DNA of 64,000 nt, taken from the NCBI GenBank assembly GCA_049642065.1, contig JBAROK010000074.1, forward strand, positions 4,114 through 68,113, in the 5' to 3' direction. The notes under the pieces were generated by a model. The model had not been told where the DNA came from. It worked only from the letters and a program-made list of their open reading frames with translations, and searched no databases. This stretch comes from Candidatus Omnitrophota bacterium. GTDB lineage: Bacteria > Omnitrophota > Gorgyraeia > Tantalellales > Tantalellaceae. The translations under genes and the position numbers were made by a program. Shown here one piece after another: positions 1-15,435 of this stretch; position 1 is the stretch's first letter, and every line of letters starts with the position of its first letter.

Positions 1-260
1 CTTTCGTACAATTATGGCATGGCGCCAGATTCACATACAAAGTCGCGTTAGCCCAATCCGTGAAAGGTTCATCCAATGCCTCGGCCTGACGTATCGCTTC
101 CACTTCGGCATGAACAGCGTTGACCCCGTATTTGCTATGCGACTCCAGTCTTCTTCTTGCGACCGTAACCACTATGTTACCGTCCCCGTCAACTAACCTT
201 GCAGCAACCGGTATGTTAGGATCAAGCTCTCCAGCATTCACCTTTTCTTTCGCGAACCGA
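1..260 (-). other. Domain of the giant protein: CDA/TadA-type zinc-dependent nucleotide deaminase domain, partial; continues beyond the window
   Basis: ...LVDGDGNIVVTVARRRLESHSKYGVNAVHAEVEAIRQAEALDEPFTDWANATLYVNLAPCHNCTK matches the TadA/CDA signature. HAE (H/C-x-E) is about 28 residues before PCxxC. The HAE codons are at about 104-112 and the PC..C codons at 8-22. Confidence 0.7.
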
Positions 261-3200
261 ATCAGTTCAGTCATATGCCGTCTATCCTCTTCGGAAAAGA
301 ACGCTCTTTCTCTTCTTAGTTTTTCAAGGTCATCGAGAACAGCATTGATCGAACCGCGAACTGAATCAATTCTTCCAATAAGCTCATCATAGCCGCCTTC
401 CCTTTGCGCCGCTCTAACCCCTTCCTCAAAATCATTGCTTATAAAGCCCACAAGGCTCCCTGCTTTTCCAATAGCTTGATTTCTGGATCGCGGCAGATTA
501 AAATGGACATCGTCTTTGATCCTCGCAAGGTTTAATGCAAGCTCTTCGCCCATACCCTTAATACATCTGGGACTGACTCTGCCTATCTCCTTCAAATTTA
601 TCCATAGATCCATAAACGTGGCATTTAATCTATTTGTAAAGCCCTCAATATTCCTTACATCCATGACTTCCTGGAGCCTTGCAAGAAATCCTACTTCTTG
701 TTCAATTAGCGGAAGCATACTATCATGCAAAGCAACAACTTTTTCCTTGTTATCCCCAAAAAGTTCAACACAGAAATCAATGTCGCGCTCCAGCTGTTCT
801 TTCTCAAATTCAGGACCGCTACGGCCGGTAAGTTCGTGTGCAAGCTCATGAAACAGGCCCGTCAAGACCAGTTTGCTTCTGGTCTTCTCATCTTCTATCT
901 CGTTAACCGCTTTGTTTATGCCTATAAATCCGTTTCTCCTGTGGTCCTCGAACATATAAGGTGAAACATCAAGCATGCCTATAACAATGGTATTCGGAAG
1001 CTCGTTAACGTCACCGTCGTAACGTTCAACAGTTTTTTCAAGCACTATCTGGACCAGTGCCCCTGAAAGACGTGTACCACGGTCGGTTACAACCCTGATA
1101 GCTCTATCTCCTACTGTTACCCAATTCTCCTCCGCCTTACCCATCCATATAAGAGTCCTGGCCAAGTCTTCCGTCTGATCGAGATATCTCACGTTCACCT
1201 GCATGCCACCCATCATGGAAACCGGGCTGTAATACGGGCTATCCTGACGGATCTTCATGCCTTCGGTGTGAACAGCTGAACCTGTCGCCATAGCAAGCTG
1301 TGTCGGCAATTCAAATCCTTTAGGAAAACTGCGTTCTTTAGCTTTGTGTTTTTCTATCCAATTTTTGCCCAGAAGGATCGGCGTGGGGGATTTAGTAATA
1401 CTCCAAGTAATATCACCAATAAAAGGAATCTTAATAAGACTGGCTTTCGCGTGTACGACTCCTTCCCTGTCACGTAAGATATGTTTTAACGGAAGATTCT
1501 TTAGAGCGCCTCCTTTCATTAAACTCCTGTATTTCGCCTTAGAGTCAGGCGCTTCTATATATTCCTTGTCTTTCGCGAAATATATCCCTTTCTTCCCCTC
1601 ATAATCACCAACAAAGAACCTGAAATCGCTAGGAATAACAAAAGATTCCTTTTTACCTTCCACCTCTACTTTGTGAGTATATTTTTTCTTTCTTTTGGGA
1701 AACACACATTTTACCGTGATCTGTGCCCTGTTCTTGCCTGTCGCAAAGTCCGGTGTTATCCTAACCGACTCCACATACTCCCAAGGGATTATCCCCGTGC
1801 CTTCAGCCCCTACCAGCATTTTAAGTGCAGATTTTTTTAACACAAGCGGCCTTTTATTTTTTTGGCTTATATCTCTGAGATGAAGAAGGAAATCTATAAG
1901 TGCTATTATCTTCTTATGGTCACCTTTGTTCTGTATGTTCATCTCTAAATATTTAAAGAGCATCCCGCGTACGTTACTTTCGGTGATCTCCATGGGCCCG
2001 GATTTTTCAGCAGCTTGAGCTGCTTTTATCCCGGCTCTATCCAACACCCACGCAGATACCCCAGCCCCGGCAAGCTGTAAGACCCCTCTTCTATTTATCC
2101 TCGCATCAGCTAAAAGCGAGGCGTATCCCCTTTGCCCCTCTTGCTTGATCGTCCAAACAATAGCATTAATAACCAGATGCGCCAGCATACTTAAACCCAA
2201 AGCAAGTGCCGGCTGATCGATGTACCTGAACGCGATTATAATTCCTGTAAAAGCAGCAATAATAGGCACCGTAAGAATATGTAGTTGCATTTTCACGAAA
2301 ATGGACTGGTCTGTCATGGCACTGGCCAGCTTGTCAGACCATCTCTGAAACATCATTTTACCGAAAACTACCGTTGTAGATTTATCCGCTTTCGCCTCTG
2401 CTGTGGCAAGATCACTATATCTCCATGAAGTTTCACGATCCGTTATATCTATAACTTTAGCAGGTACACTATTGATACCCCTGAGAGTGGCAGCTATACA
2501 TATGTTATAACCTTCTGCAATATAGTAATTCTCTCCCATCTTAACGACTACAGGCCGGCTCTCGGAAAGCATCTTTTTGAACTTTCCGTCTCTATAAAGG
2601 AAATATCTCAGGATAGTCCACGGGTTATATTGAACCGTGCGGGATACGGTGGTCGATTTTAGCTCAACCTCCCCGTCGTATATATTAGCTACGTTAGTGA
2701 TGTAATCTGGCTGAATACCGGCACATTCAGCAACTTCGTTTAAGACCTTTTCATACGCATCATCGGCCTCGAGATCAGCCTTATCGGCTTTTTTCTTGAT
2801 ATGCTCAATTGATAGAACATTAAGCAGTTCCCGTACTGCAGGCGGACCTCTTGTTCCCATAATATGCCCCAAAACAAATGCCCCGGCAACTGAAACAAGG
2901 AGTCCTGCAAATATACAACTATTAAGTAGCGGCATAGCCGGATTTAACCAGTCAAGGATAGCCTTTACAAGGAACGGTATACCTACCTTGCCAAGCTCTT
3001 CCAGTACGGGTGCGTGCAAAAACGGTGAATAACCGTCTATATTGGAACCAAGTGAGGCGGAGCCAGGCGCCGCATCGATTGGCGCAGGCAACCCTAAAGC
3101 TTTCTGTACAACCTTAGCTTCCGGGACATCTCTTTTCGCCAAATTCATCTTTTTCCGTTTTGCAACTAGCTCCTGGTACTTTTGCTTAAGTTGTTCCAGG

Positions 3201-6200
3201 TTGTCCTTAGCTTTTCCCTTGTCAAAGAATGACGCTTCTCCTAGATCAGGATAACTCTTAAACAGTTTTTCTGTCCTTTTTATACTCTCTCTCAGGTACT
3301 CTATAGCCTCGTCATACCCGGCAAGCACCTTTTCGATCTCTTCGTCATTGATATAACGCAATTTTTTTCGGGCACTCAGTATTACTTCTTCCGCTTTCCG
3401 CTGCACGGTATCGACCTCGTTCAGGCCTTTTCTTAAGTACTTGTTCAGAGATATAGCCCTCCAGTTCCTTATCCTTAGCTTGAAAATGAACCTACCAACT
3501 CGTTCCAATAACCCTCCGCCTATATTCCAAAGAAAGTGGCCGATATGTATTTGCCGCAGAGCTATGTCCTGGATACCCTTGGAACATACAATGTTTTCCA
3601 TGTGAGCATGTATTTCCCTGTTTATGTCCCTGCATTCAACAAAAAGTTTTTCAACTTCATCCAGATGGAAATCTTCAGCTTCTACTTCCGAAAGAACCAC
3701 ACCGTCATCCCCGCGTCCCCCGGTATAAGTCCAATGATAATACTTCTCTCCTCTCCCGCAAAAGACCTTGAGCGTGGGATGTAGGAATTCACTGCTCGAC
3801 CATATCCTTTCGGGGTGTTTGCGCGCAGTAAGTATAAAAGGAACGATCTTTACCAGCGCATCCGGTCTATCCATATTAGGCATGACCTTCATGGTCCGGA
3901 GTAGATCGGGATTTTCAAAAAGATCTTCGTACCCGAACCTCTCCTGCAAGGTCTTCAAGGAAACTTCCCAATGCTGGAACAGTGAACCATACTCTCCGCC
4001 TGGCGTGTACGGATAACCAAATGTGTCGACCGAACCGAACTCAAAAAATTTCCATTCAGGAACAAAACCTATATAGACGATCGAACCGCCCATGGAATGT
4101 CTTCCGGTATTTCGGACATACGCACGAAGAAGTGACGCAAGATAGACCAGGGCCGCATCTGTTCCCGCATCGACCCCATACTCTCCGCCCATCTGTTCTC
4201 TCAATTTCACTATGAAATCTAAGGCTTTATCCTGGTTTGTACCCTTCCAGTAATGAACGCTTGGCTCAACTCTCTCCCCAAAATTAGCTGCCACCGGAAG
4301 ATTCAGTGATGTAATCGCTAGTGGATGTTTTGAAAGCGGCGCTAAGGCCCTGGCCATGCCATCTTCACCCTTCCATTCTGACGGCGGTGCTGATAGAGGC
4401 TTAGCTTCGGGCGCTTCTGGAAGCGGACGCGGGAAATGGATGATCCCGTCAATACCCTCAACGTTAACATCGAGCCCTCTAAAATCGATAAATCCATACC
4501 GCTTACCCCCCTTAACCAGGTCCATGATCGCTCTTACTACCGGCAGAGTAATTGCCTGATGTTCTATTCCAAAAATACTTCCGTGTTCTCCTTCGCAAAC
4601 AGCAGCAACAAGCCCGTAAGGGATACCTCTATCCTCCAGCTGCTTTGGTATCTGACTAGAATCTCTTATATGAGCGTAACCTGTGATTACTGCCATATGG
4701 GCACAAGGATCTTCCTTAAGCGCCTTCTCCATTTGCCCGGCAAGATATTTACCCATGTACATGCCACGCTGAGAGCTTTGCTCATTATCATCCCAGGATG
4801 GATCTCTCTCCCCTGCCGGCATATCAATAAAAACAACTTTAATCCCTAAACGCTGCGCGACCGTTACCAGCTGTTCAAGACGATGCGGTATCCAGCAACT
4901 CTCGGAGATCTCGCTTATATTATCAACCTTGAGATCCGACGGTATCTCCAGCCCCAGGTGGGTAACACCGGCAGCTTTGAGCTGTTCAAGATAATTGACA
5001 AAACCTTTCTGTATACCCAAAGCACCATGATGGGTATCGCCGATAACCAGCACGTTCCTATCGGCAAACAACCCCTTGAAATCTACACCCTCGTGCCACC
5101 GGTTCTCAACGATCTCTTCCCACTTCTCATTATTCGTTCCGAATAAACCGCTACCATCGACGACACTCAAGGGCTTTTCTACCTGCTCTATTCTCTTCTT
5201 CCCCCTAAACGCGTTGTATATCCGCTTTGCCAAACCAGCAACAATTCCGCAGATCTCGTAGATGATTATAACAACACCACCTACAAGACAAACAGCAAGT
5301 AACATAACTAGTGTTGCTGCCGCCCACGAGCTCAGTTCTTTTCCCGCTTCGCTAGCCTTTACTGCGGTCTCAGCGGCCTCGATTATCCCTGGGGTTAACA
5401 AGCCAATAAGAAATACCAACAATCCAACCGGTCCACGTGAAATACCCGAAGAACCTGAATTCCCTTCTTCCGCTTTCTTTCCCTTCTTTTCGTTATATTG
5501 CTCAACCGCTTTTATTACATATTTGTGTGGATCTTTTGCAACAATTCTTAACTTCTCGGTCTCAGGATCCAATAGAATCGGTACTCTTTCGCCCTCTTCG
5601 TCCCTCCTTATTTCTATCCGACCACCTTGGTTTACTATTACAGTGAAATCTACACCACCAAACAGTTTCCCGTCTTTAAAAACTCCTGTTTTTTGTTCGC
5701 TTTTTACCTTTTTCACTCGTTCTCTAAGCATCTTTATATTATGCTCAACTATAAGGCGCGCTGTCCTTGCTTCAGCCAGAGCGACTTTATCTGCGGACGT
5801 CCACGTGCTAGTGAGCTTCTCGTAATCTATCCCCCTCTTTCGAAGCACCCTATTCACTTCCTTGCGCGTCTCTTCTGCCTCTTCGAGAAGATGATCCCGG
5901 TATTTCCCTTCTCCGGCCTTCTCTGCTCTAAGTTTAAGTTCCGCGATCTGGTAAAAAAGCCCCTGTATTTCCTCCATCGCTTTATCTGATAATGTCATGG
6001 GCACTTCGACCAGATGCCCCCATCTTCCTTCAGGGTCCATCTTTATCTTTCCACTCTCATCGACTTTAAGGCTAGGTGTTTCATTAAAATAGAGCTTATC
6101 TCCTCTCATTACCAAGCCCTGTCTGAAAAGACCTTCAAGAGCATTTGTATCCATCGGTCCTCTTTGTTCTCTTATGGGTCCGGCATCCTCGAAAGCAAAC

Positions 6201-9200
6201 CTACTTGAAGTGCTGCGCCTTGCCCTTTTTACTGATTTCCCTTGTGCCGGCTCCTCAGCAAAAGGCATTCTCCTGCTATCTGACTTTTTCGGCGGCTTCA
6301 TTACTTTTGTCGTATCCTGTCCTGGGTACGGCAACTGAATTTCCTGCTTGTTTTCTCTTATATAATCGCTAAGATCTTTGTCTGCCAAAGGAAACATCTC
6401 GCGCTGAAGGATACGTAAAAGATAATGCGGATTCTCATCCCACCCTTCATCCCAACCTTTCTCCCCTTCCTCATCCCTTTGCTCCTCCATTATGAACTGC
6501 ATAGTGTCCGTGGACGGCACAATAGACGTCTGATCCTCTCCGTCAAATGATATGACTACGTACCCGGATTCCATCCTAAGCTCCATGATACCTTTTTTGA
6601 TCAGATACTCTCCTATCTCGTGGAATTCAGCGATCGGATTCTCCTTAAGTTCCGAATAAAAGGCCAGCAGGTCATTTTCGGATGACGTAAAAGCGAAAAG
6701 GTCTTCTACCAGCACCCTGAACGTATACTCCTTGGCCTTTGTCTGGGCGTACCGGACCAGCATAGGATAGATGATATCTCTATAGTAAAACTCATTACCG
6801 GCAATAGCCGAGAGATTGGCCCCCAAATCCCTCATATTCATAAGTTCCCGCGGGATCAAACCAACAACATGTCTGTTTCCCTTGGAATCTATCGCCCTAA
6901 ACTTGCTGTTATCCGGGGACACCATCTCCACCCTCGCACTATTACCTATCTGTAAAGAAGGGCTCACTCCCTCTTCTAAATATTTTATTGCCGCGTCGAC
7001 AGACGCAAACCGGTCGTTCGGATCCCTCCTGATGCATCTCATGATAAATTCCGCAAGAGCATCCGGGATATCTTTCCCTTCTTTTTTAGCCATATCACGT
7101 ATGTCTGTGGGTTCCACGCGGGATTTATTATTGAAGTATTCGGCAATATTCCTTCCGTCGTACGGCAAAGGTACTTTGCCAGTCAATGCTTTGTACAATA
7201 TAATCCCTAATCCGTACACATCAGTACTTTTGTTATATTTTCCTTCTTCATGCAGCGGAAAAACTTCCCAAGGAAGATATTCAGGAGTACCTCGCACATC
7301 ATTGATTTTAAGCTCCCCGCTTTCCGGGAAACGCAGAGCAAGATCAAAATCCACCAAGAAAACAAGACTGGAAAAATCAAATTTGCCGCCTTTTCCCGGT
7401 AGAAGCATATTTGCCGGTTTTATGTCGGTGTGAACTATCCTTTTGCCCTGCACCTTTCTGATAATTTCCAGAACTTTTTTTGCTAGAGTTGCGGCCTCAT
7501 CCGGATTGAGCTGTCTTCCTGAATCGATTACAGTATCCAATGACTCTCCCGGAACAAACTCCGTAACCATAAAGAAATCCTCTCTGCCGTTACCACGTTC
7601 CCAGCGACCCATATCAAGCCCCTTAATAACCCCTCCAACTTCGCTCAAATATCTCATAACAAAATAGCCCTTTAAAAAGCTTGGGAGTTTTCTTCGTAAG
7701 TCCTTTGCTCCGGAATAACGTAAAACTCTCACGGTAACATCTGCCCCAGTCTTTAAATCTTTCGCTTTATACACCATAGAATACTCTCCGGTACCTAATA
7801 ACTTCTCCAACCTGTATCTTCCGGCAAGCATTGACGGGTCGCGCGAAGTGGCTGTTTCCTGCACACTTTTGAACATGAGCCGCATATCTGACAGTAAAGA
7901 TTCCATCTCTTCGCCACTCATAAGAAAACGTTCTGTTCTGACTAATTCATCAATGACCCATCCGATCAAAGCCTCCCTCAAGCGCACCAGATATTCTTCA
8001 ACACGCTCATTTTTCTCCTCCCGATCCGTAGCAGGCTTAAAGCAAGACCGCGCTTGCGATTCGCCAAGCAATATTTCTCTAATCGCTACTTTTGCAGAGT
8101 CATCCATATTTACAAGAGCGTCCAAGCTCTCACTAAAGACCTCATATTCCCCAGTCTCTGATTCTAGCTGCCCCTTAACATCTTTAAGGTTTTCAAAAAA
8201 CCTATCGACCAGAGAAGATTCCGACTCGACCGGATTATACCCACTGAAGGTAGAAGACAACAGTTCCACAACTAACCGGTAGTGCTTATCGCTAAAAAGC
8301 TTAATTTTTGTAGTCAGTTCTTTATCGTCGTCAACACTCCTATCAATAGAACCGTCTATGGAACTGTCCGTCAAAGAACGTCCGATCTGCGACGTATCTG
8401 GCTCCTCGTCACCAAAAAGGGTAAGCTGTCTCGGTTTGCCACGAGGCCTATCTTCCATCCGTGACCTGACTTTTTCTACAAGTTCCCGCGCCTTCTCTTC
8501 GGATAGTGACATCCACAAATCCTTTTCCCACTCATCCTCGGTCCAGGCAGTCCAGGTTATTGGCATACTTCTGAACCCTATGCCGCGAAAGAAATCTTTT
8601 GCGGACTTTCCTCCCTGTTTATCTTTATATTCTTCGTCCTCGGCAGGATGTACTATATACAGATTACGGCTAACTTCTTCTTCCGGTTCAAGATATACGG
8701 CTTCTCCGTCCGGAGCTACCATAGTGTTCTCTTGCTCTAACTCTTCCATGGCACGTTCCGTTATCTTGGCAATAAGAATTTCTCCTATTCCTTCACTCCG
8801 GTGCTTTGCGGAAACCTCCATGTAATCCCCTACCCATACTTTCCTGTTCTTCTCCTTGAATGGGAACTCTCCTTTCGTTGAAACAGATAGCCCAAGGATA
8901 TTCCCAGATGCGTCTTCCAGCTTTATCATACAAACCGGTCCACTCCCACCAGCAGCCCTTTTCGCGGCACTGTCCCACATCCCTCTGCTAAAGTAAGGCT
9001 TCTCTTCCTGTTCGAACCACCTGTCCAGCAGACTGCTCATCGCAGCAGAATCATTCACTTCCCGGGCATAATACCTCTTGTTCCCGATGCTGAATGGTCC
9101 GCTTATTGCGTCCTTGTGAGAAGACGACGCCTGCATTTGCTGTATCAGGCGAGTAAGCTCTATATCCTCTTGATCCCTACCAAATGTACCCTTACCAAAA

Positions 9201-11791
9201 AGATCCAGCTGAACAGCCCGGAGTAGGTAATGTGGGTCCTTTCCCCATGTCTTAGACCATTTCTCGTCTTTTGCTATTAACCAGTTACGGACATGTGTCG
9301 AAAGGAATACTCTAACAACCCTGCCGTCCTGCGTCCGTATTTCGACTTCTTTCCCGTCCCTGACCAAGCTAAGACTAATGGTGTATTTCCTGTTAAGGAA
9401 CTCTCCAATCTCGTGAAACAGAGCAATGGGGTTATCGATCAACTCTTCCTGCAGAGCAATAAGGTTATCTCCAGCAGATACAAACCCGAACAGATCCCCA
9501 ACAAGAGGATTAAAAGAATATAACTCCGGCGGAGAGTTCTCCAAAAGTTCTAAAAATAGTTCCATCACGGACCTGCACTCGGGCTTGCGAGCCATGAACA
9601 ACCTTAAAGCCTCTTTCGCTTTTCCAAGCTCGGCCGCGTTAAGCTCCATCCGTTCTTTAAGAACCTTATTCCTGTCCTCCGCATCCGAAACAGAAACATA
9701 TTTCCTGTCGTTTAATCCAAACACCCTGCTGGGTATTGCCTTTTTACCTATTCGCGAAGACTCCGTTACAACGGAAGACTTTTTCGCCACGAAACCGCCC
9801 AAACGCGCATATCTGTTCTCTTTACGCTTCATAAAAAATTCTTGAGGAATAAATCCGGCAAAGCCTAATTCTTCCAATTTCTTCTGAACAGATTCCTCTT
9901 TTTCGTGAATCCCTATGAAAACTACTTCTACATGCCCGGCCTTGATATCACTATATAATTCGTCCGCCCCGCTGTATTCGGATTCGTTTTTAGTATTGCC
10001 TCTTTTATCCTTGTACACAAGATGAGGCTGTGTGTCCGGATCATCTATAAGAGTGCGTAACGAAGTAGACAAAAGACCGTCTCTCAGCAACCTCTCTATC
10101 ACTTCTGTCTGCATAGGGTAACGCCCATCAAGACCGTCAGGTTCGGAATCCCTGAAATCAAGATAAGAAACTGTCCCACCCGGTTTAAGAACGCGTGCGA
10201 TCTCTTCAAGGATAAACTCCCGATCATGTTTATTGATTACCTGACTAAGCGTGCGGTGCATAACAAGCGCGTCAACTGACGCATCCGGCAATGGAATGCC
10301 ATGAGCCAAGTCACTCTGCTCAAATGCCAGCGCCGGTTTTTTTGCCTGTTTCATTTCTTTTACAGCCGCCCATGCAGAAGCATCTCCAACAAGATTTCCA
10401 GACATTTCGATCGTTTTTTTCTTAGCTTTTTTTATGTTATTTGGGTTAATGTCCAGCCCGAGAACCGAAAACCCTTTATCGTTCATCCACCTGGCTATCT
10501 GCCCTTCTCCACAGCCAAGATCCACAATAACAACCGGCTCGCTTTTCTCAGATACCTGTTCCTTTAAAGTGTTAACGAATTTTACGGGATACGTCCCCTC
10601 GTAAGGGTATTCCGTTCCGCTATACCCTGTGATCTGAGAAGCTGTGAATGTCACAACATTTTCGTTTTTCTCGCCTTTTCTCGAAACCAATACAAGCATA
10701 AGATCCGCAAAAGACCTGCCTCTCTCAATTATGCTAAATCCTGCATCTATTGCCGCCTTCCCCGTATCGGCTATTTCATAGAATTCCGCCATCAGCTTCT
10801 GAAATTCATTATCGCTTAACTCGTACTCCGGTTCGGCTACATCCTCAGCGACTATCATCCCTCCCGGCTTCAGCACCTTGACACATTCACCAAAAAACCT
10901 CTTTTGCGCATTAAAATGTGCCTCCGCTCTCTTACGTATATCTTCCCGAGTATGCCCTAGCGCATCAATCCCACTGGGCACAAAATCAAGAATATTTCTG
11001 AAGATAATCGCATCGAACTGATCACTAGGCAACGTAAAGGGCTGGTTAAAATCCATTTCCACTACTTTTACCTCATCTGCTCCTGCCTTTATAAGACTAC
11101 CCTTGAGTCTACTTATATCCTCATGATCTATATCAACGGCTGTGACCTCTGCGCCCTCACTTGATAGCGCAAGTATATGATCCGGGTTTGACCCTACTCC
11201 CAGTTCAAGTACTTTCTTGCCTTTTAGATTTCCTCCCAATATTTCTTTGAGCTTGGATACTATCGCAGGAGCCTTGCCTGCACCTTTCTTCGTATCGTCC
11301 GAAATGCTTTCTATTTTGATCTTGCTTTCGTCTTTTTGGATCTCGGCTATATCCTCGCAGCTAGAAGTTATCCTGAACTTCTTTCCCTTATTAGGACCGT
11401 CAAATATTTGAAGGTCTACACGAGTCTTCCCGTCTTCCTTTCTCGGATTGGAAAGAACATCTAGGAGACGGTCTCTACTTACTTCAGGCGCAACGCTGAG
11501 CCACTTATCCAACTCAGAGTTTATATCCTGAAACGGGACCATATCTTCTTTAAGCGCCATCGCGAGAATACACGCAAGTTCTAAACGTACCTGCGTATCG
11601 AACTGGCGGCCTGTTACATCCAGGATAGGCTTGAACATTGATTGGATCTGCAGCGTGTGGTGGGCATTAATACGAAGCTCACGACCCATATCGGGATACG
11701 CCCATGCGATATTATTGATTGTGAATAGGCATACTATTGCTATCGCGATTATCTTGATCAGTGTCCTGTGCTTCCTATTTAAGGAGTTCAT
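1..11791 (-). CDS. Giant secreted multi-domain protein, at least 3,930 aa, 3'-truncated by the window edge. Modules: signal peptide, 2x SAM-MTase, GNAT, atypical STK-like, ChaN/Tiki-like, ParB-like, HExxH, CDA/TadA-like deaminase
   Basis: Manual codon-by-codon minus-strand translation from ATG at 11791 to position 1 met no stop. The ORF track lists no closed minus ORF of 60 aa or more in 1-11790, only short antisense plus ORFs. An in-frame TAA lies 21 nt upstream of the ATG. N-terminus reads MNSLNRKHRTLIKIIAIAIVCLFTINNIAWA, a Sec signal with an AxA site. Domain motifs are listed in the separate entries below. Confidence 0.85.
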   Translation of the reverse strand, partial: MNSLNRKHRTLIKIIAIAIVCLFTINNIAWAYPDMGRELRINAHHTLQIQSMFKPILDVTGRQFDTQVRLELACILAMALKEDMVPFQDINSELDKWLSVAPEVSRDRLLDVLSNPRKEDGKTRVDLQIFDGPNKGKKFRITSSCEDIAEIQKDESKIKIESISDDTKKGAGKAPAIVSKLKEILGGNLKGKKVLELGVGSNPDHILALSSEGAEVTAVDIDHEDISRLKGSLIKAGADEVKVVEMDFNQPFTLPSDQFDAIIFRNILDFVPSGIDALGHTREDIRKRAEAHFNAQKRFFGECVKVLKPGGMIVAEDVAEPEYELSDNEFQKLMAEFYEIADTGKAAIDAGFSIIERGRSFADLMLVLVSRKGEKNENVVTFTASQITGYSGTEYPYEGTYPVKFVNTLKEQVSEKSEPVVIVDLGCGEGQIARWMNDKGFSVLGLDINPNNIKKAKKKTIEMSGNLVGDASAWAAVKEMKQAKKPALAFEQSDLAHGIPLPDASVDALVMHRTLSQVINKHDREFILEEIARVLKPGGTVSYLDFRDSEPDGLDGRYPMQTEVIERLLRDGLLSTSLRTLIDDPDTQPHLVYKDKRGNTKNESEYSGADELYSDIKAGHVEVVFIGIHEKEESVQKKLEELGFAGFIPQEFFMKRKENRYARLGGFVAKKSSVVTESSRIGKKAIPSRVFGLNDRKYVSVSDAEDRNKVLKERMELNAAELGKAKEALRLFMARKPECRSVMELFLELLENSPPELYSFNPLVGDLFGFVSAGDNLIALQEELIDNPIALFHEIGEFLNRKYTISLSLVRDGKEVEIRTQDGRVVRVFLSTHVRNWLIAKDEKWSKTWGKDPHYLLRAVQLDLFGKGTFGRDQEDIELTRLIQQMQASSSHKDAISGPFSIGNKRYYAREVNDSAAMSSLLDRWFEQEEKPYFSRGMWDSAAKRAAGGSGPVCMIKLEDASGNILGLSVSTKGEFPFKEKNRKVWVGDYMEVSAKHRSEGIGEILIAKITERAMEELEQENTMVAPDGEAVYLEPEEEVSRNLYIVHPAEDEEYKDKQGGKSAKDFFRGIGFRSMPITWTAWTEDEWEKDLWMSLSEEKARELVEKVRSRMEDRPRGKPRQLTLFGDEEPDTSQIGRSLTDSSIDGSIDRSVDDDKELTTKIKLFSDKHYRLVVELLSSTFSGYNPVESESSLVDRFFENLKDVKGQLESETGEYEVFSESLDALVNMDDSAKVAIREILLGESQARSCFKPATDREEKNERVEEYLVRLREALIGWVIDELVRTERFLMSGEEMESLLSDMRLMFKSVQETATSRDPSMLAGRYRLEKLLGTGEYSMVYKAKDLKTGADVTVRVLRYSGAKDLRRKLPSFLKGYFVMRYLSEVGGVIKGLDMGRWERGNGREDFFMVTEFVPGESLDTVIDSGRQLNPDEAATLAKKVLEIIRKVQGKRIVHTDIKPANMLLPGKGGKFDFSSLVFLVDFDLALRFPESGELKINDVRGTPEYLPWEVFPLHEEGKYNKSTDVYGLGIILYKALTGKVPLPYDGRNIAEYFNNKSRVEPTDIRDMAKKEGKDIPDALAEFIMRCIRRDPNDRFASVDAAIKYLEEGVSPSLQIGNSARVEMVSPDNSKFRAIDSKGNRHVVGLIPRELMNMRDLGANLSAIAGNEFYYRDIIYPMLVRYAQTKAKEYTFRVLVEDLFAFTSSENDLLAFYSELKENPIAEFHEIGEYLIKKGIMELRMESGYVVISFDGEDQTSIVPSTDTMQFIMEEQRDEEGEKGWDEGWDENPHYLLRILQREMFPLADKDLSDYIRENKQEIQLPYPGQDTTKVMKPPKKSDSRRMPFAEEPAQGKSVKRARRSTSSRFAFEDAGPIREQRGPMDTNALEGLFRQGLVMRGDKLYFNETPSLKVDESGKIKMDPEGRWGHLVEVPMTLSDKAMEEIQGLFYQIAELKLRAEKAGEGKYRDHLLEEAEETRKEVNRVLRKRGIDYEKLTSTWTSADKVALAEARTARLIVEHNIKMLRERVKKVKSEQKTGVFKDGKLFGGVDFTVIVNQGGRIEIRRDEEGERVPILLDPETEKLRIVAKDPHKYVIKAVEQYNEKKGKKAEEGNSGSSGISRGPVGLLVFLIGLLTPGIIEAAETAVKASEAGKELSSWAAATLVMLLAVCLVGGVVIIIYEICGIVAGLAKRIYNAFRGKKRIEQVEKPLSVVDGSGLFGTNNEKWEEIVENRWHEGVDFKGLFADRNVLVIGDTHHGALGIQKGFVNYLEQLKAAGVTHLGLEIPSDLKVDNISEISESCWIPHRLEQLVTVAQRLGIKVVFIDMPAGERDPSWDDNEQSSQRGMYMGKYLAGQMEKALKEDPCAHMAVITGYAHIRDSSQIPKQLEDRGIPYGLVAAVCEGEHGSIFGIEHQAITLPVVRAIMDLVKGGKRYGFIDFRGLDVNVEGIDGIIHFPRPLPEAPEAKPLSAPPSEWKGEDGMARALAPLSKHPLAITSLNLPVAANFGERVEPSVHYWKGTNQDKALDFIVKLREQMGGEYGVDAGTDAALVYLASLLRAYVRNTGRHSMGGSIVYIGFVPEWKFFEFGSVDTFGYPYTPGGEYGSLFQHWEVSLKTLQERFGYEDLFENPDLLRTMKVMPNMDRPDALVKIVPFILTARKHPERIWSSSEFLHPTLKVFCGRGEKYYHWTYTGGRGDDGVVLSEVEAEDFHLDEVEKLFVECRDINREIHAHMENIVCSKGIQDIALRQIHIGHFLWNIGGGLLERVGRFIFKLRIRNWRAISLNKYLRKGLNEVDTVQRKAEEVILSARKKLRYINDEEIEKVLAGYDEAIEYLRESIKRTEKLFKSYPDLGEASFFDKGKAKDNLEQLKQKYQELVAKRKKMNLAKRDVPEAKVVQKALGLPAPIDAAPGSASLGSNIDGYSPFLHAPVLEELGKVGIPFLVKAILDWLNPAMPLLNSCIFAGLLVSVAGAFVLGHIMGTRGPPAVRELLNVLSIEHIKKKADKADLEADDAYEKVLNEVAECAGIQPDYITNVANIYDGEVELKSTTVSRTVQYNPWTILRYFLYRDGKFKKMLSESRPVVVKMGENYYIAEGYNICIAATLRGINSVPAKVIDITDRETSWRYSDLATAEAKADKSTTVVFGKMMFQRWSDKLASAMTDQSIFVKMQLHILTVPIIAAFTGIIIAFRYIDQPALALGLSMLAHLVINAIVWTIKQEGQRGYASLLADARINRRGVLQLAGAGVSAWVLDRAGIKAAQAAEKSGPMEITESNVRGMLFKYLEMNIQNKGDHKKIIALIDFLLHLRDISQKNKRPLVLKKSALKMLVGAEGTGIIPWEYVESVRITPDFATGKNRAQITVKCVFPKRKKKYTHKVEVEGKKESFVIPSDFRFFVGDYEGKKGIYFAKDKEYIEAPDSKAKYRSLMKGGALKNLPLKHILRDREGVVHAKASLIKIPFIGDITWSITKSPTPILLGKNWIEKHKAKERSFPKGFELPTQLAMATGSAVHTEGMKIRQDSPYYSPVSMMGGMQVNVRYLDQTEDLARTLIWMGKAEENWVTVGDRAIRVVTDRGTRLSGALVQIVLEKTVERYDGDVNELPNTIVIGMLDVSPYMFEDHRRNGFIGINKAVNEIEDEKTRSKLVLTGLFHELAHELTGRSGPEFEKEQLERDIDFCVELFGDNKEKVVALHDSMLPLIEQEVGFLARLQEVMDVRNIEGFTNRLNATFMDLWINLKEIGRVSPRCIKGMGEELALNLARIKDDVHFNLPRSRNQAIGKAGSLVGFISNDFEEGVRAAQREGGYDELIGRIDSVRGSINAVLDDLEKLRRERAFFSEEDRRHMTELIRFAKEKVNAGELDPNIPVAARLVDGDGNIVVTVARRRLESHSKYGVNAVHAEVEAIRQAEALDEPFTDWANATLYVNLAPCHNCTK
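700..1000 (-). other. Domain of the giant protein: HExxH zincin-like metallopeptidase motif region
   Basis: LVLTGLFHELAHELTGRSGPEFEKEQLE, with HELAH at about 826-855. Confidence 0.4.
2140..2300 (-). other. Segment of the giant protein: second predicted transmembrane-helix cluster, preceded N-terminally by a twin-arginine-like motif
   Basis: Hydrophobic runs IFVKMQLHILTVPIIAAFTGIIIAFRY and ALALGLSMLAHLVINAIVWTI. The RR-like motif ARINRRGVLQLAGAGVSAWVL lies at about 2060-2100. Confidence 0.45.
2440..2560 (-). other. Segment of the giant protein: degenerate ParB/Srx-fold-like segment
   Basis: RPVVVKMGENYYIAEGYNICIAATLRGINSVPAKVIDITDRE follows the ParB N-domain pattern (Y.iIaGeRR..Aa.l.G...vPa.V.d) but has GYN in place of the GERR/GHHR arginines. 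Confidence 0.25.
4600..5110 (-). other. Domain of the giant protein: ChaN/Tiki/TraB-superfamily-like domain
   Basis: VLVIGDTHHGALGIQKGFVNYLEQLKAAGVTHLGLEIP fits the ChaN N-terminal pattern [VI]LLGExHD...H. The C-terminal AVITGYAHIRDSSQIPKQL fits the ChaN GxGHV...P..L motif. Confidence 0.4.
5230..5440 (-). other. Segment of the giant protein: internal pair of predicted transmembrane helices
   Basis: GPVGLLVFLIGLLTPGII and WAAATLVMLLAVCLVGGVVIIIYEICGIVAGL are long hydrophobic stretches separated by a short polar loop. Confidence 0.5.
7000..7830 (-). other. Domain of the giant protein: Hanks-type Ser/Thr protein-kinase-like domain with non-canonical catalytic motifs
   Basis: Glycine loop LGTGEYSMVYKA. 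A VTVRVL strand with R where VAIK has K. Catalytic loop HTDIKPAN (HRD becomes HTD). DFDLA (DFG becomes DFD). GTPEYLPWE. DVYGLGIILYKALTG. Confidence 0.65.
8700..9010 (-). other. Domain of the giant protein: GNAT-like acetyltransferase motif region
   Basis: VWVGDYMEVSAKHRSEGIGEILIAKITERA resembles GNAT motif A (R/Q-x-x-G-x-G/A), about 8762-8803. Confidence 0.4.
10120..10600 (-). other. Domain of the giant protein: class-I SAM-dependent methyltransferase fold, copy 2
   Basis: VVIVDLGCGEGQIARW (about 10495-10545) and ARVLKPGGTVSYLDF (about 10155-10190). Confidence 0.65.
10800..11270 (-). other. Domain of the giant protein: class-I SAM-dependent methyltransferase fold, copy 1
   Basis: Motif I-like VLELGVGSNPDHILAL (about 11171-11212) and post-II motif VKVLKPGGMIVAEDV (about 10845-10885). 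Confidence 0.6.
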
Positions 11792-11835
11792 AGTTATATT
11801 AATTATAATTGGTTAGTCGAATAAAAAGTATATAT

Positions 11836-14865: not shown

Positions 14866-15435
14866 TTACAACAGTTCCAGGTTATACTGACGTAACCTGG
14901 CGTCTATAGCTTTAGCGTTACCGAAAATACCGTCAAGCTCTCTCCAGAACTCTTTCCGGTGATTCTTGATACGCGTATGCATAAGTTCATGCAGTATAAC
15001 ATAATCTGCTAGCTCTTCCGAAAGCGACATCAACTTCACGTTAAGCGATATATTATTGTTATGGGAACAACTACCCCATCTGGTCTTCTGGTTCCTGATG
15101 AAAAGTTTGCGATAGGTAAAACCATGTTCCGTTGCGAGCTGGTTGACTTTTCCCGTTAATTTAACCCGGGCTTCCGGCTCGTCAATATCTGCCGTACTCT
15201 GCGCAGCCAGATCATATTCTCTTTCCACCCGCCTAATCCTGGCAATATGTTTCTTTATCCAGTCCACCTTGGAGTGAACGATTTGTTCAGCTTCCTCGAA
15301 AGAGATCCCGTAAGGTATAGCTACTCTTACACCCTTGAAAGGTATCACGAAAATGTTCAGATATTTTGACCTCTTGCTGCGTTCAAGGATCACTGCTCCC
15401 ACGCCATCGATATTTATCGTTAAGGCTTTTGCCAT
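14866..15435 (-). CDS. DUF45/YgjP-like (SprT-like) metal-dependent hydrolase
   Basis: RWGSCS...ISLN...DYVILHELMH...NHRKEFW is the DUF45 HExxH signature. Confidence 0.7.
   Translation of the reverse strand: MAKALTINIDGVGAVILERSKRSKYLNIFVIPFKGVRVAIPYGISFEEAEQIVHSKVDWIKKHIARIRRVEREYDLAAQSTADIDEPEARVKLTGKVNQLATEHGFTYRKLFIRNQKTRWGSCSHNNNISLNVKLMSLSEELADYVILHELMHTRIKNHRKEFWRELDGIFGNAKAIDARLRQYNLELL

What the first reader, a model, noticed from the sequence alone, without database searches (positions are those of the whole stretch)
6370..9560. Internal duplication: two copies of an uncharacterised module of about 110 aa bracket the GNAT and kinase segment
Copy 1 is ...ELYSFNPLVGDLFGFVSAGDNLIALQEELIDNPIALFHEIGEFLNRK...KDPHYLLRAVQLDLFGKG (about 9150-9560). 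Copy 2 is ...EYTFRVLVEDLFAFTSSENDLLAFYSELKENPIAEFHEIGEYLIKK...ENPHYLLRILQREMFPLADKD (about 6370-6770). The conserved pattern is DLF.F.S..N.L.A...EL..NPIA.FHEIGE.L..K ... (D/E)(P/N)PHYLLR..Q...F. This looks like a novel repeated domain, possibly a regulatory or docking module for the enzymatic units between the copies. Some DNA-level similarity persists (CTCTCC-ATCTCGTG).
Basis: seen in the sequence. Interest (0 to 1): 0.55.

Follow-up and report, generated by a model that had tools for sequence, protein, structure and literature searches.

The report
Unannotated zincin-like module in giant protein
The two similar stretches are real copies of a roughly 200-residue protein domain found in no curated family library, probably a metal-dependent protease-like unit, that recurs inside huge secreted multi-enzyme proteins of Omnitrophota bacteria and may cut them into working pieces.

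Summary
Both copies lie in one minus-strand ORF (ATG 11791, running off the window; full protein 5108 aa, Candidatus Omnitrophota, NCBI MGB2651530.1). They match at BLASTP E 1e-20. Each is about 200 aa, not 110: window 9140-9757 and 6356-6955. A third copy lies outside the window.

An exhaustive HMMER search found about 200 instances in 150 representative proteins. Nearly all are giant, with 1-4 copies each. Pfam, NCBIfam and PDB sequences give no significant match.

Conserved residues are HExx(E/H), with E in 77% and H in 16%, a downstream HYxxR, DLFGF, and a sharp Q-IGK start. AlphaFold models (pLDDT 92) show an N-terminal beta-meander plus a helix / three-strand sheet / HExxE helix / His helix core. 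For a compact HExxH member the top PDB matches are almost all minimal zinc metallopeptidases, though none is individually significant.

The copies are ancient paralogues. Blocks shared between related giants begin at module starts. The module does not travel specifically with kinase or GNAT.

Best reading (about 0.4): a divergent zincin-like domain acting as a built-in processing protease of a secreted effector polyprotein. A docking or regulatory role is not excluded.

The parts
2..11791 (-). Giant ORF. It holds the first 3930 of 5108 aa of a secreted multi-enzyme protein (NCBI MGB2651530.1, Candidatus Omnitrophota) and runs off the left end of the window.
   Evidence: Stop-free frame 11812..2, first ATG at 11791. 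100% identical to P0002 over 3930 aa. Name and source.
11222..11791 (-). Signal peptide (…NNIAWA|YP) plus a conserved N-terminal 'head' domain, aa 1-190.
   Evidence: Found at residue 1 (within the first 20, or 48 in one stop-free stretch) of 25 of 26 related giant proteins or ORFs (P0050 carries an extra tandem copy), with a conserved A-W-A motif after the hydrophobic core. The signal-peptidase cleavage site is inferred, not tested.
10802..11224 (-). SAM-dependent methyltransferase domain 1.
   Evidence: Pfam Methyltransf_11/25/31 each report several matched stretches in the protein. RsmB-F-like weak hit at aa 200-314.
10112..10564 (-). SAM-dependent methyltransferase domain 2.
   Evidence: Pfam Methyltransf_11, E 8e-29, best stretch aa 423-541.
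9140..9757 (-). Module copy 1 (aa 679-884): SRIGK … DLFGF … FHEIGEFL … PHYLLRAVQ … DIELTRLIQ.
   Evidence: Local HMM i-Evalue 4.9e-53. Limits from the family boundary logo. Translation checked.
9401..9415 (-). HEIGE motif of copy 1: putative metal ligand His, general-base Glu and second ligand Glu.
   Evidence: Family columns are H 181/194, E 181/194, and E 149 / H 32 at i+4. Translation checked.
9218..9232 (-). HYLLR motif of copy 1: putative third ligand His, plus Tyr and Arg.
   Evidence: H 181/190, Y 181/190, R 181/190. Translation checked.
8741..9013 (-). Weak GNAT-like acetyltransferase segment.
   Evidence: Pfam Acetyltransf_1, E 8.8e-4, 20.0 bits against a cutoff of 20.7. No PDB sequence hit. 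The segment is conserved in 6 related giants.
7004..7816 (-). Ser/Thr protein kinase domain.
   Evidence: Pfam Pkinase, E 7e-34, aa 1326-1596.
6356..6955 (-). Module copy 2 (aa 1613-1812): LQIGN … DLFAF … FHEIGEYL … PHYLLRILQ … DKDLSDYIR.
   Evidence: Local HMM i-Evalue 1e-56. AlphaFold model pLDDT 92.9, pTM 0.90. Translation checked.
6608..6622 (-). HEIGE motif of copy 2, on the predicted helix at model residues 111-124.
6413..6427 (-). HYLLR motif of copy 2, at the start of the predicted helix at model residues 180-191.
302..1111 (-). A separate region with a canonical HExxH (…NGFIGINK…GLFHELAHELTG…). It looks like a different, possibly distantly related, zincin-type domain.
   Evidence: Conserved in 9 giant proteins or ORFs. 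hhalign against the module profile aligns only the strand plus HExxH helix, P 0.0014, probability 18%. No Pfam hit.
2..268 (-). Cytidine/deoxycytidylate-type deaminase domain, cut by the window edge.
   Evidence: Pfam dCMP_cyt_deam_1, E 7e-12.

Best explanation
The repeated unit is a domain family of about 200 residues that no curated library annotates. It has an N-terminal three-strand beta-meander. This is followed by a divergent zincin-type core in the order backing helix, three-strand sheet, helix carrying HExx(E/H), variable insert, then a helix starting with HYxxR.

It recurs 1-4 times, interspersed among unrelated enzyme domains. The host proteins are signal-peptide-bearing giants (about 1,400-7,700 aa) from Omnitrophota and a few Elusimicrobiota- and Planctomycetes-labelled genomes. 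Many of these share a constant head and a constant tail around a variable middle.

Most likely each module binds a metal through His, Glu/His and the downstream His, and uses the motif Glu as general base. It would then act as a built-in processing peptidase that cuts the exported precursor into 'module + downstream cargo' pieces.

Shown here: homology of the copies, the family, the conserved residues, the predicted secondary-structure order, the zincin-enriched fold matches, and block boundaries at module starts.

Inferred, not shown: metal binding, peptidase activity, self-processing, the cleavage site, and delivery to a host or prey cell.
For: Homology and family.

Conserved residues: H 181/194; E 181/194; E 149 or H 32 of 194 at i+4; H, Y and R of HYxxR each 181/190; D of DLFGF 173/192; terminal D 173/176.

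Fold:
- The AlphaFold model of copy 2 has pLDDT 92.9, with HEIGE in helix 111-124, directly after three strands and a preceding helix, and HYLLR at the start of helix 180-191.
- The compact HExxH member has pLDDT 91.5 and the order alpha-beta-beta-beta-alpha(HExxH)-…-alpha(H).
- This is the core described for zincin-like MPTases in PMC5512222.
- Foldseek of the compact model against PDB gives top hits that are almost all minimal zincins: proabylysin 4jiu (E 0.033, probability 0.84), projannalysin 4jix, IrrE/PprI, SPRTN 6mdx (probability 0.90), selecase, PPEP-3, ZMPSTE24, MATCAP, CapP, Wss1, BepA and BlaR1.

Sporadic sub-threshold sequence hits also point to metalloproteases: DUF6782 E 0.0068 and Peptidase_M78 E 0.075 for one HExxH member; phrog_87 'metallo-protease' for 3 of 57 members, best E 6.8e-4.

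Architecture:
- 1-4 copies, usually 250-1450 aa apart.
- Head and tail are conserved, signal peptides are present, and several complete proteins have no internal TM segment.
- Cargo is heterogeneous and partly effector-like, including Fic, kinase, GNAT, deaminase and methyltransferases.
- Blocks shared between P0002 and P0003/P0008 start within a few residues of module starts: 677, 1614 and 4109. The deaminase block ends at 4105.

Precedent: zincin-like MPTases occur in 1-5 copies interspersed in polyvalent proteins and are proposed to process them (PMC5512222).
Against: - No individually significant sequence or structure match to any zincin. The best Foldseek E is 0.033, with TM 0.3-0.4. The full-module model gave no zincin among its top 50 PDB hits.
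- The window copies, and 77% of the family, have Glu instead of the second His. I know of no characterised zincin peptidase with HExxE (own knowledge).
- The Q-IGK start motif is not enriched outside modules: 10 observed against 11.6 expected. There is therefore no sign of extra trans-cleavage sites.
- Modules are far fewer than cargo domains, so they cannot release every domain.
- No proteomic or biochemical evidence for cleavage exists.
Confidence: 0.4

Rival explanations
1. Non-catalytic module. It would be a zincin-derived, perhaps metal-stabilised, structural, docking or regulatory unit that organises or joins cargo units of the giant protein. This is.
For: - The second His is replaced by Glu in most members.
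- There is no significant match to an active peptidase family.
- The module sits at junctions of conserved blocks and is the one element shared by otherwise unrelated giants.
Against: - The putative general-base Glu and both His are kept in about 93-95% of about 190 instances across deep divergence of 25-35% identity. That is unusual for a pseudo-enzyme.
- Tyr and Arg next to the third His are equally conserved, as expected for transition-state stabilisers. That last point is an inference from own knowledge of other zincins.
Confidence: 0.25
2. Effector protease. Each module would be itself a toxin or effector that cleaves proteins of a host or prey cell, rather than the carrier protein.
For: - Same zincin-like evidence as above.
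- The carrier proteins have signal peptides and effector-type cargo such as Fic, kinase and deaminase.
- PMC5512222 notes that MPTases can act as effectors.
Against: - Up to four diverged copies sit in one polypeptide, at constant positions at block starts. This fits a processing or architectural role better than redundant effectors.
- Effector domains in such arrays are usually variable, whereas this is the one constant internal element.
Confidence: 0.15
3. A metal-dependent hydrolase of another substrate class, such as an amidase, an esterase, or a nucleic-acid- or cell-wall-directed enzyme, that merely shares the zincin scaffold.
For: - The metal site would be atypical, His/Glu/His.
- Neighbours in fold space include SPRTN/Wss1 and IrrE, which are DNA-linked proteases.
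- Published Omnitrophota giants are proposed to degrade cell envelopes (10.1101/2023.11.21.568195).
Against: All nearest fold matches are peptidases. No carbohydrate- or nucleic-acid-binding signature was found in the module.
Confidence: 0.1
4. Chance similarity, low-complexity sequence, or a recent in-gene duplication or assembly artefact.
For: None beyond the fact that the nearest short database fragment, P0001, sits on a contig that looks chimeric.
Against: - Pairwise E 1e-20 and the shuffle control.
- About 200 instances in independent assemblies.
- DNA identity of only about 41%.
- Copies are closer to orthologous positions in other proteins than to each other.
Confidence: 0.01

Closest known systems
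Minigluzincins (proabylysin 4jiu, projannalysin 4jix, selecase) and other minimal zincins (IrrE/ImmA M78, SprT/Spartan, Wss1)
   Same: - Small core of backing helix, three-strand sheet, metal-motif helix, and a following helix carrying the third ligand.
- They are the top Foldseek matches of the compact model.
- In minigluzincins the third ligand is a His rather than Glu (own knowledge of Lopez-Pelegrin et al. 2013, not re-read here). This matches the conserved HYxxR His.
   Different: - No significant sequence or structure score.
- HExxE instead of HExxH in 77% of members, including all window copies.
- Extra N-terminal beta-meander.
- A variable beta-hairpin or helical insert between the two ligand helices.
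- Always embedded in giant proteins rather than free-standing.
Zincin-like MPTase domains of polyvalent proteins of phages and conjugative elements (Iyer et al. 2017, PMC5512222)
   Same: One to five copies interspersed between diverse enzymatic domains of very large polypeptides delivered outside the producer. They have the same described core fold and are proposed to process the polypeptide autoproteolytically.
   Different: - Here the gene is chromosomal, in Omnitrophota next to housekeeping genes.
- No relatives were found in 2.9 million viral contigs.
- No Pfam match of any kind to the module.
- The third ligand is His rather than Glu, and the second ligand is mostly Glu.
MARTX and large clostridial toxins with an internal autoprocessing cysteine protease domain
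   Same: Analogy only. These are secreted giants with conserved ends, a mosaic of effector domains in the middle, and a built-in protease that releases them (own knowledge).
   Different: - A different protease class: no conserved Cys in the module.
- Several protease-like modules instead of one.
- No RTX-type repeats detected.
Omnitrophota giant 'multi-enzyme' proteins / Archaeovorins (10.1101/2023.11.21.568195; 10.64898/2026.06.07.730766)
   Same: Same phylum and the same type of cargo: methyltransferase, GNAT, HATPase, HAD, PPDK_N, HEAT and TPR. They also carry signal peptides and TM helices, and large parts are Pfam-dark.
   Different: - The carriers here are 1.4-7.7 kaa, below those papers' 10-30 kaa thresholds.
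- In the passages read, those papers discuss C39 and S8 peptidases as possible processing enzymes and do not mention this module.

Membership tests
Zincin-like metallopeptidase superfamily | First metal-ligand His followed by a general-base Glu (HE) on an alpha-helix | tested here: met
   H 181/194 and E 181/194 in the family. HEIGE lies in predicted helix 111-124 of copy 2.
Zincin-like metallopeptidase superfamily | Second ligand His at i+4 (a full HExxH) | tested here: not met
   The window copies read HEIGE, HEIGE and HEIME. Across the family this position is Glu in 149, His in 32 and Asp in 3 of 194. It is met only in a 16% minority.
Zincin-like metallopeptidase superfamily | [quoted passage not shown] | tested here: met
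   Secondary-structure order in two AlphaFold models with pLDDT above 91, compared with the description in PMC5512222. Only the order of elements was checked, not the coordinates.
Zincin-like metallopeptidase superfamily | Third metal ligand on the helix after the motif helix, placed to complete one metal site | tested here: inconclusive
   The candidate His of HYxxR is conserved in 181/190 instances and sits at the start of the next conserved helix. Geometry could not be measured because the tool returns no coordinates.
Zincin-like metallopeptidase superfamily | Significant profile or structure match to a recognised zincin family | tested here: inconclusive
   - No Pfam, NCBIfam or PDB-sequence hit.
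- Only sporadic sub-threshold hits to DUF6782, M78 and phrog_87.
- Foldseek top hits are zincins but with E >= 0.033.
Zincin-like metallopeptidase superfamily | Binds Zn2+ and hydrolyses peptide bonds | not testable with these tools
   This needs biochemistry.
MPTase of polyvalent proteins (PF18818-type, Iyer et al. 2017) | Multiple copies interspersed among diverse enzymatic domains in a very large polypeptide | tested here: met
   1-4 copies per protein, usually 250-1450 aa apart, with unrelated cargo between them.
MPTase of polyvalent proteins (PF18818-type, Iyer et al. 2017) | Encoded by phages, prophages or conjugative elements | tested here: not met
   The window is chromosomal, with PolA, Rho, FtsH, Fhs and tRNAs nearby. 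No relative was found in viral contigs.
MPTase of polyvalent proteins (PF18818-type, Iyer et al. 2017) | Sequence match to the family model | tested here: not met
   A Pfam scan of 57 members at E <= 10 lists no MPTase family.
Autoprocessing cysteine protease domain of MARTX / large clostridial toxins | Catalytic Cys-His dyad | tested here: not met
   No conserved Cys column in the module. The resemblance is architectural only.
Omnitrophota giant multi-enzyme proteins (carrier protein, not the module) | Omnitrophota origin, signal peptide or TM segments, and many unrelated enzyme domains in one polypeptide | tested here: met
   Source name from NCBI. Related loci are mostly Omnitrophota. Domains. 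Signal peptide and TM scan.
Omnitrophota giant multi-enzyme proteins (carrier protein, not the module) | Length >= 10,000 aa (2026 catalogue) or >= 30,000 aa (2023 paper) | tested here: not met
   The full length is 5108 aa.

The most novel reading that the evidence does not exclude
These signal-peptide-bearing Omnitrophota giants would be true bacterial polyproteins. A new HExxE-type zincin family, present in several copies, would cut at its own conserved Q-IGK N-terminal boundary. This would release 'protease + cargo' cassettes (kinase, acetyltransferase, methyltransferase, deaminase, Fic …) after export, possibly inside a host or prey cell. The same modules would serve as recombination joints that shuffle cassettes between giants.
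Probability: 0.25. Interest if true: 0.8.

Novelty: new variant of a known kind. Interest (0 to 1): 0.6.

Why it matters
Omnitrophota and related ultra-small bacteria encode the longest known bacterial proteins. How these polypeptides work is an open question in both preprints read here, in particular whether they act whole or are cut up. One of them names only C39 and S8 peptidases as candidate processing enzymes.

This module is a conserved, recurrent element that is not annotated in Pfam, NCBIfam or PHROGs. It carries a protease-type metal site and sits at the starts of evolutionarily mobile blocks. That gives a concrete, testable handle on the question: mutate one Glu and look for neo-termini at Q-IGK.

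It would also add a zincin family with an unusual His-Glu-His ligand set. And it gives a profile that annotates about 200 aa per copy in proteins that are otherwise entirely 'dark': two carriers with 3-4 copies have no Pfam hit at all.

Tried and rejected
- The word-indexed protein search was run twice, with the two copies and with a 57-sequence profile. It returned only a 258-aa fragment, P0001, and none of the giant carriers. That tool evidently does not reach them, so the exhaustive HMMER search was used instead.
- P0002 could not be located by exact look-up of encoding contigs. The region downstream of the window was therefore not examined.
- Foldseek of the full 203-residue model gave nothing meaningful against PDB. 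Hits were kinases, ribosomal uL2 fragments and the like, all E > 0.1. Against BFVD it gave only weak hints, E >= 0.05.
- Profile against PDB sequences: no hit.
- I tested whether the canonical HExxH region at window 302-1111 is a fourth copy of the module. HMM-versus-sequence matched only the HE motif. hhalign gave P 0.0014, probability 18%, over 27 columns. It is not accepted as a copy.
- I tested whether the Q-IGK start motif recurs elsewhere as a possible trans-cleavage site. It is not enriched: 10 observed against 11.6 +/- 4.2 expected.
- Recent duplication or a DNA repeat was rejected.
- Specific association with kinase or GNAT was rejected.
- Phage or plasmid origin was rejected for this family at the sensitivity of the viral scan.
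- Neighbouring genes upstream of the giant ORF are tRNA-Gly, TMEM175, FMN_bind, DUF748, a YgjP-like peptidase, PAS and TPR. They give no secretion-system or mobile-element context.
Full report
**Where the finding lies**

The region 6370-9560 is inside one very long minus-strand reading frame. The frame is open from 11812 to the left edge of the window, and the first ATG is at 11791. The plus-strand ORFs listed there are shadows of this frame.

The rest of the window is ordinary bacterial chromosome. It carries DNA polymerase I, Rho, FtsH, formate-tetrahydrofolate ligase, sensor kinases and four tRNAs. Nearly all genes are on the minus strand.

The 3930 residues visible here are 100% identical to a 5108-residue database protein, P0002. 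NCBI names it 'MAG: methyltransferase domain-containing protein [Candidatus Omnitrophota bacterium]', MGB2651530.1.

Pfam recognises the following in it:
- two SAM methyltransferase domains;
- a Ser/Thr kinase (E 7e-34);
- a C-terminal-ward cytidine-deaminase domain;
- a GNAT-like segment that is only marginal (20.0 bits against a cutoff of 20.7).

**Check of the observation**

The two stretches are homologous beyond doubt. BLASTP gives 37% identity over 123 aa, E 1e-20. Similarity continues upstream, 29% over 235 aa, E 3e-19. In the shuffle control the real pair scores 70.9 bits. Of 500 shuffles, 220 gave an HSP, at most 27.3 bits; the other 280 gave none. No other internal repeat of comparable strength exists in the visible protein.

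A boundary logo was built from 153 N-terminal and 169 C-terminal ends. Conservation starts abruptly at (S/P/G)-Q-I-G-K-x-A, after an unconserved linker. It ends at HYLLRALQRExFGxxDxxLTxxIK.

In window coordinates the copies are 9140-9757 (aa 679-884) and 6356-6955 (aa 1613-1812). A third copy, aa 4105-4314, lies beyond the window edge. At the DNA level the two copies share only about 41% of columns.

**The family**

A word-indexed search found only one short fragment. An exhaustive HMMER search of 1.84 billion representative proteins gave 150 proteins at E <= 1e-3. Of these, 107 are at E <= 1e-10.

Almost all are very long, mostly 800-7700 aa. Iterated local searches find 200 instances in them. 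Per protein the counts are one copy in 115, two in 21, three in 9 and four in 4. Consecutive copies are usually 250-1450 residues apart.

A scan of one genome per species returned 15 loci, all in stop-free stretches (ORFs) of 574-5600 codons, most over 1,200. Nine are labelled Omnitrophota, two Elusimicrobiota, two Planctomycetes-type and two from one MAG labelled only 'uncultured bacterium'. A scan of viral contigs found none.

The module has no significant match in any curated library:
- Pfam;
- NCBIfam;
- PHROGs;
- PDB sequences.

**What the module looks like**

Conserved columns over about 190 instances:

| Feature | Conservation |
|---|---|
| G of IGK | 153/157 |
| D and G of DLFGF | 173/192 and 172/192 |
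| H and E of the motif | 181/194 each |
| Position i+4 after the His | Glu 149, His 32, Asp 3 of 194 |
| H, Y, R of HYxxR | 181/190 each |
| Terminal Asp | 173/176 |

The motif is therefore HExxE in most members, including all three copies of this protein, and a canonical HExxH in a minority.

AlphaFold2 with a 57-sequence alignment gives a confident model of copy 2, pLDDT 92.9 and pTM 0.90. Its elements run in this order:
- three short N-terminal strands, whose only structural echoes are SH3-like pieces of ribosomal protein uL2;
- two helices;
- three strands;
- the helix carrying HEIGE (residues 111-124);
- a three-strand insert and a helix;
- a variable loop;
- a helix that begins with HYLLR (180-191);
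- a final helix.

A compact natural variant with HExxH, in which helices replace the strand insert, models equally well at pLDDT 91.5. Its order is helix, three strands, HExxH helix, two short helices, His helix, final helix.

**Fold comparison**

Foldseek of the full model against PDB gave nothing interpretable. Foldseek of the compact model also gave no individually significant hit; the best E is 0.033 and TM is 0.3-0.4.

However, the great majority of the top-ranked entries are minimal zinc metallopeptidases or domains of that fold. They include proabylysin, projannalysin, selecase, IrrE/PprI, SPRTN, PPEP-3, ZMPSTE24, MATCAP, CapP, Wss1, ADAMTS-5, BepA and BlaR1.

Single HExxH members give sub-threshold sequence hits to DUF6782 ('putative metallopeptidase', E 0.0068) and Peptidase_M78. 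The PHROG most often touched is phrog_87 'metallo-protease', in 3 of 57 members, best E 6.8e-4.

**Not a recent duplication, and not tied to kinase or GNAT**

Each copy of this protein is most similar to the copy at the corresponding position of another giant:
- copy 1 to P0003 at 62%;
- copy 2 to P0008 at 47%, and 73% to the fragment P0001;
- copy 3 to P0003 at 50%.

Sister copies are only about 30-37% identical. Of 85 instances in multi-copy proteins, only 15 have their best match in the same protein.

Cargo between modules differs widely:
- Segments like this protein's GNAT occur in 6 of the 150 proteins, its kinase in 4 and its deaminase in 2.
- Among 27 sampled carriers Pfam finds Fic, HEAT, TPR, HATPase_c, an ABC1 kinase-like domain, HAD, PPDK_N, Metallophos, GNAT, M48 and others. 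None occurs in more than two proteins.
- Four complete carriers from genomes show HATPase_c_3, TPR, cNMP-binding or HEAT.
- Two carriers with four and three module copies have no Pfam hit at all.

**Architecture of the carriers**

Thirteen complete proteins of 1399-7388 aa share two constant ends. One is a head, always at residue 1. The other is a tail of about 300-400 aa, always at the very end. The head consists of a basic stretch, a hydrophobic core, a motif like NNIAWA followed by YP, and a conserved domain of about 150 aa.

The head looks like a Sec signal peptide with an A-x-A cleavage site; this is an inference. Several complete carriers have no further hydrophobic segment. This one has about five, between residues 2120 and 3215.

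Collinear blocks between this protein and its relatives begin within a few residues of module starts:
- P0003 1253-2184 matches residues 677-1621 here, which is copy 1 through the kinase.
- P0003 2409-2889 matches 1614-2114.
- P0008 1559-2557 matches 4109-5108.
- The deaminase block ends at 4105.

P0008 has a single module where this protein has copy 1, GNAT, an unknown segment, kinase and copy 2. The difference is exactly one module-to-module period. The mobile unit therefore appears to be 'module plus what follows it'. On that view copy 2 does not bracket the kinase but heads the next unit.

**Most likely mechanism**

I read the module as a divergent zincin-type domain with three parts to its site. 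The metal site would be formed by the motif His, the Glu (or His) four residues later, and the His of HYxxR. The motif Glu would act as general base. The adjacent Tyr and Arg are candidates for stabilising the transition state, by analogy with other zincins (own knowledge).

Several observations point the same way:
- the module recurs between unrelated enzymes in exported giants;
- ATP-, SAM- and acetyl-CoA-dependent cargo sits behind a signal peptide;
- heads and tails are constant;
- mobile blocks start at modules.

The closest functional parallel is the zincin-like MPTase of phage and plasmid polyvalent proteins. It is present in one to five interspersed copies and is proposed to process the polypeptide after delivery. 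More loosely, the autoprocessing protease of MARTX toxins is a parallel (own knowledge). I therefore favour a built-in processing peptidase that cuts the precursor into cassettes.

My estimates for the separate claims are:

| Claim | Probability |
|---|---|
| Real domain family | > 0.95 |
| Zincin-like fold or descent | about 0.75 |
| Active peptidase | about 0.5 |
| Self-processing role | about 0.35-0.4 |

**Evidence against and limits**

- No significant match to any zincin was obtained.
- The HExxE form is unusual.
- The Q-IGK start motif is not enriched elsewhere in the carriers: 10 observed against 11.6 expected.
- Modules are fewer than cargo domains.
- A separate canonical HExxH region in the same protein, window 302-1111, is only weakly similar to the module: hhalign P 0.0014, probability 18%. 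It may be the real protease of the system, or a second one.
Roles as an effector protease or as another kind of hydrolase also remain possible.

**Relation to the literature**

Two preprints on Omnitrophota giant proteins describe multi-enzyme giants with the same kinds of cargo and large Pfam-dark parts. They discuss C39 and S8 peptidases as possible processing enzymes. In the passages I read they do not mention this module.

The carriers found here are shorter, 1.4-7.7 kaa, than those papers' thresholds. I did not test whether the module also occurs in the 10-147 kaa proteins.

**Verdict**

The 'internal duplication bracketing GNAT/kinase' and 'docking module' parts are not the best reading.

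The module is a new, distinctive family of a known kind, a zincin-like domain in very large multi-domain proteins. It comes with a testable and potentially important role in processing giant Omnitrophota proteins.

Noticed in passing
window 302-1111 (-), aa 3561-3830: A second, different metalloprotease-looking region with a canonical HExxH (…NGFIGINK…GLFHELAHELTG…). It is conserved in 9 giant proteins or ORFs, has no Pfam hit, and is only weakly similar to the module (hhalign P 0.0014).
   Followed up: partly
window 11222-11791 (-), aa 1-190; and aa 4700-5108 of P0002 (outside the window): A conserved 'head' (signal peptide ending …NNIAWA|YP plus a domain of about 150 aa) is found at the start of 26 related proteins or ORFs. 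A conserved 'tail' of 300-400 aa is found at the very end of 19. Thirteen complete proteins have both around a variable middle. Neither has a Pfam match.
   Followed up: partly
P0002 vs P0003 / P0008 (window aa 677, 1614, 4105-4109): Breakpoints of collinear blocks between related giants coincide with module N-termini. P0008 lacks exactly one module-to-module period (copy 1, GNAT, unknown segment, kinase). This suggests cassette exchange by recombination at modules.
   Followed up: partly
L001 (ENA contig, 1658 bp), 61-837: The only short database relative, P0001, has the end of one module, a 40-aa linker and the start of another, so the modules are in tandem. A stop codon lies 20 aa upstream, and there is an abrupt switch to AT-rich DNA carrying a bPH_2 gene on the other strand. 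It looks like a chimeric assembly or a decayed remnant.
   Followed up: partly
window 2-268 (-): A cytidine/deoxycytidylate deaminase domain (HAE…PCxxC) is cut by the window edge. It also gives weak hits to toxin-type deaminase families: MafB19-deam 25.6 bits, SNAD4 and NAD1.
   Followed up: no
window 4600-5160 (-), about aa 2210-2400: A segment after the first transmembrane cluster (…NVLVIGDTHHGALGIQKGFVNYLEQLKAAGVTHLGLEIP…) has no Pfam hit and no counterpart in the 150 relatives. Its function is unknown.
   Followed up: no
window 14866-15435 (-): A stand-alone YgjP-like metallopeptidase gene (Pfam E 2e-38) lies 3 kb upstream of the giant gene. No link to the giant gene was established.
   Followed up: no
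whole window 1-64000: Every long ORF but one spurious overlap is on the minus strand. GC skew is negative, -0.14 to -0.29, in every 2-kb bin across 64 kb, which is an unusually uniform strand bias.
   Followed up: no
tools:: The word-indexed 5.8-billion-protein search returned none of the giant carriers that the exhaustive HMMER search found. Very long proteins seem to be invisible to it.
   Followed up: yes
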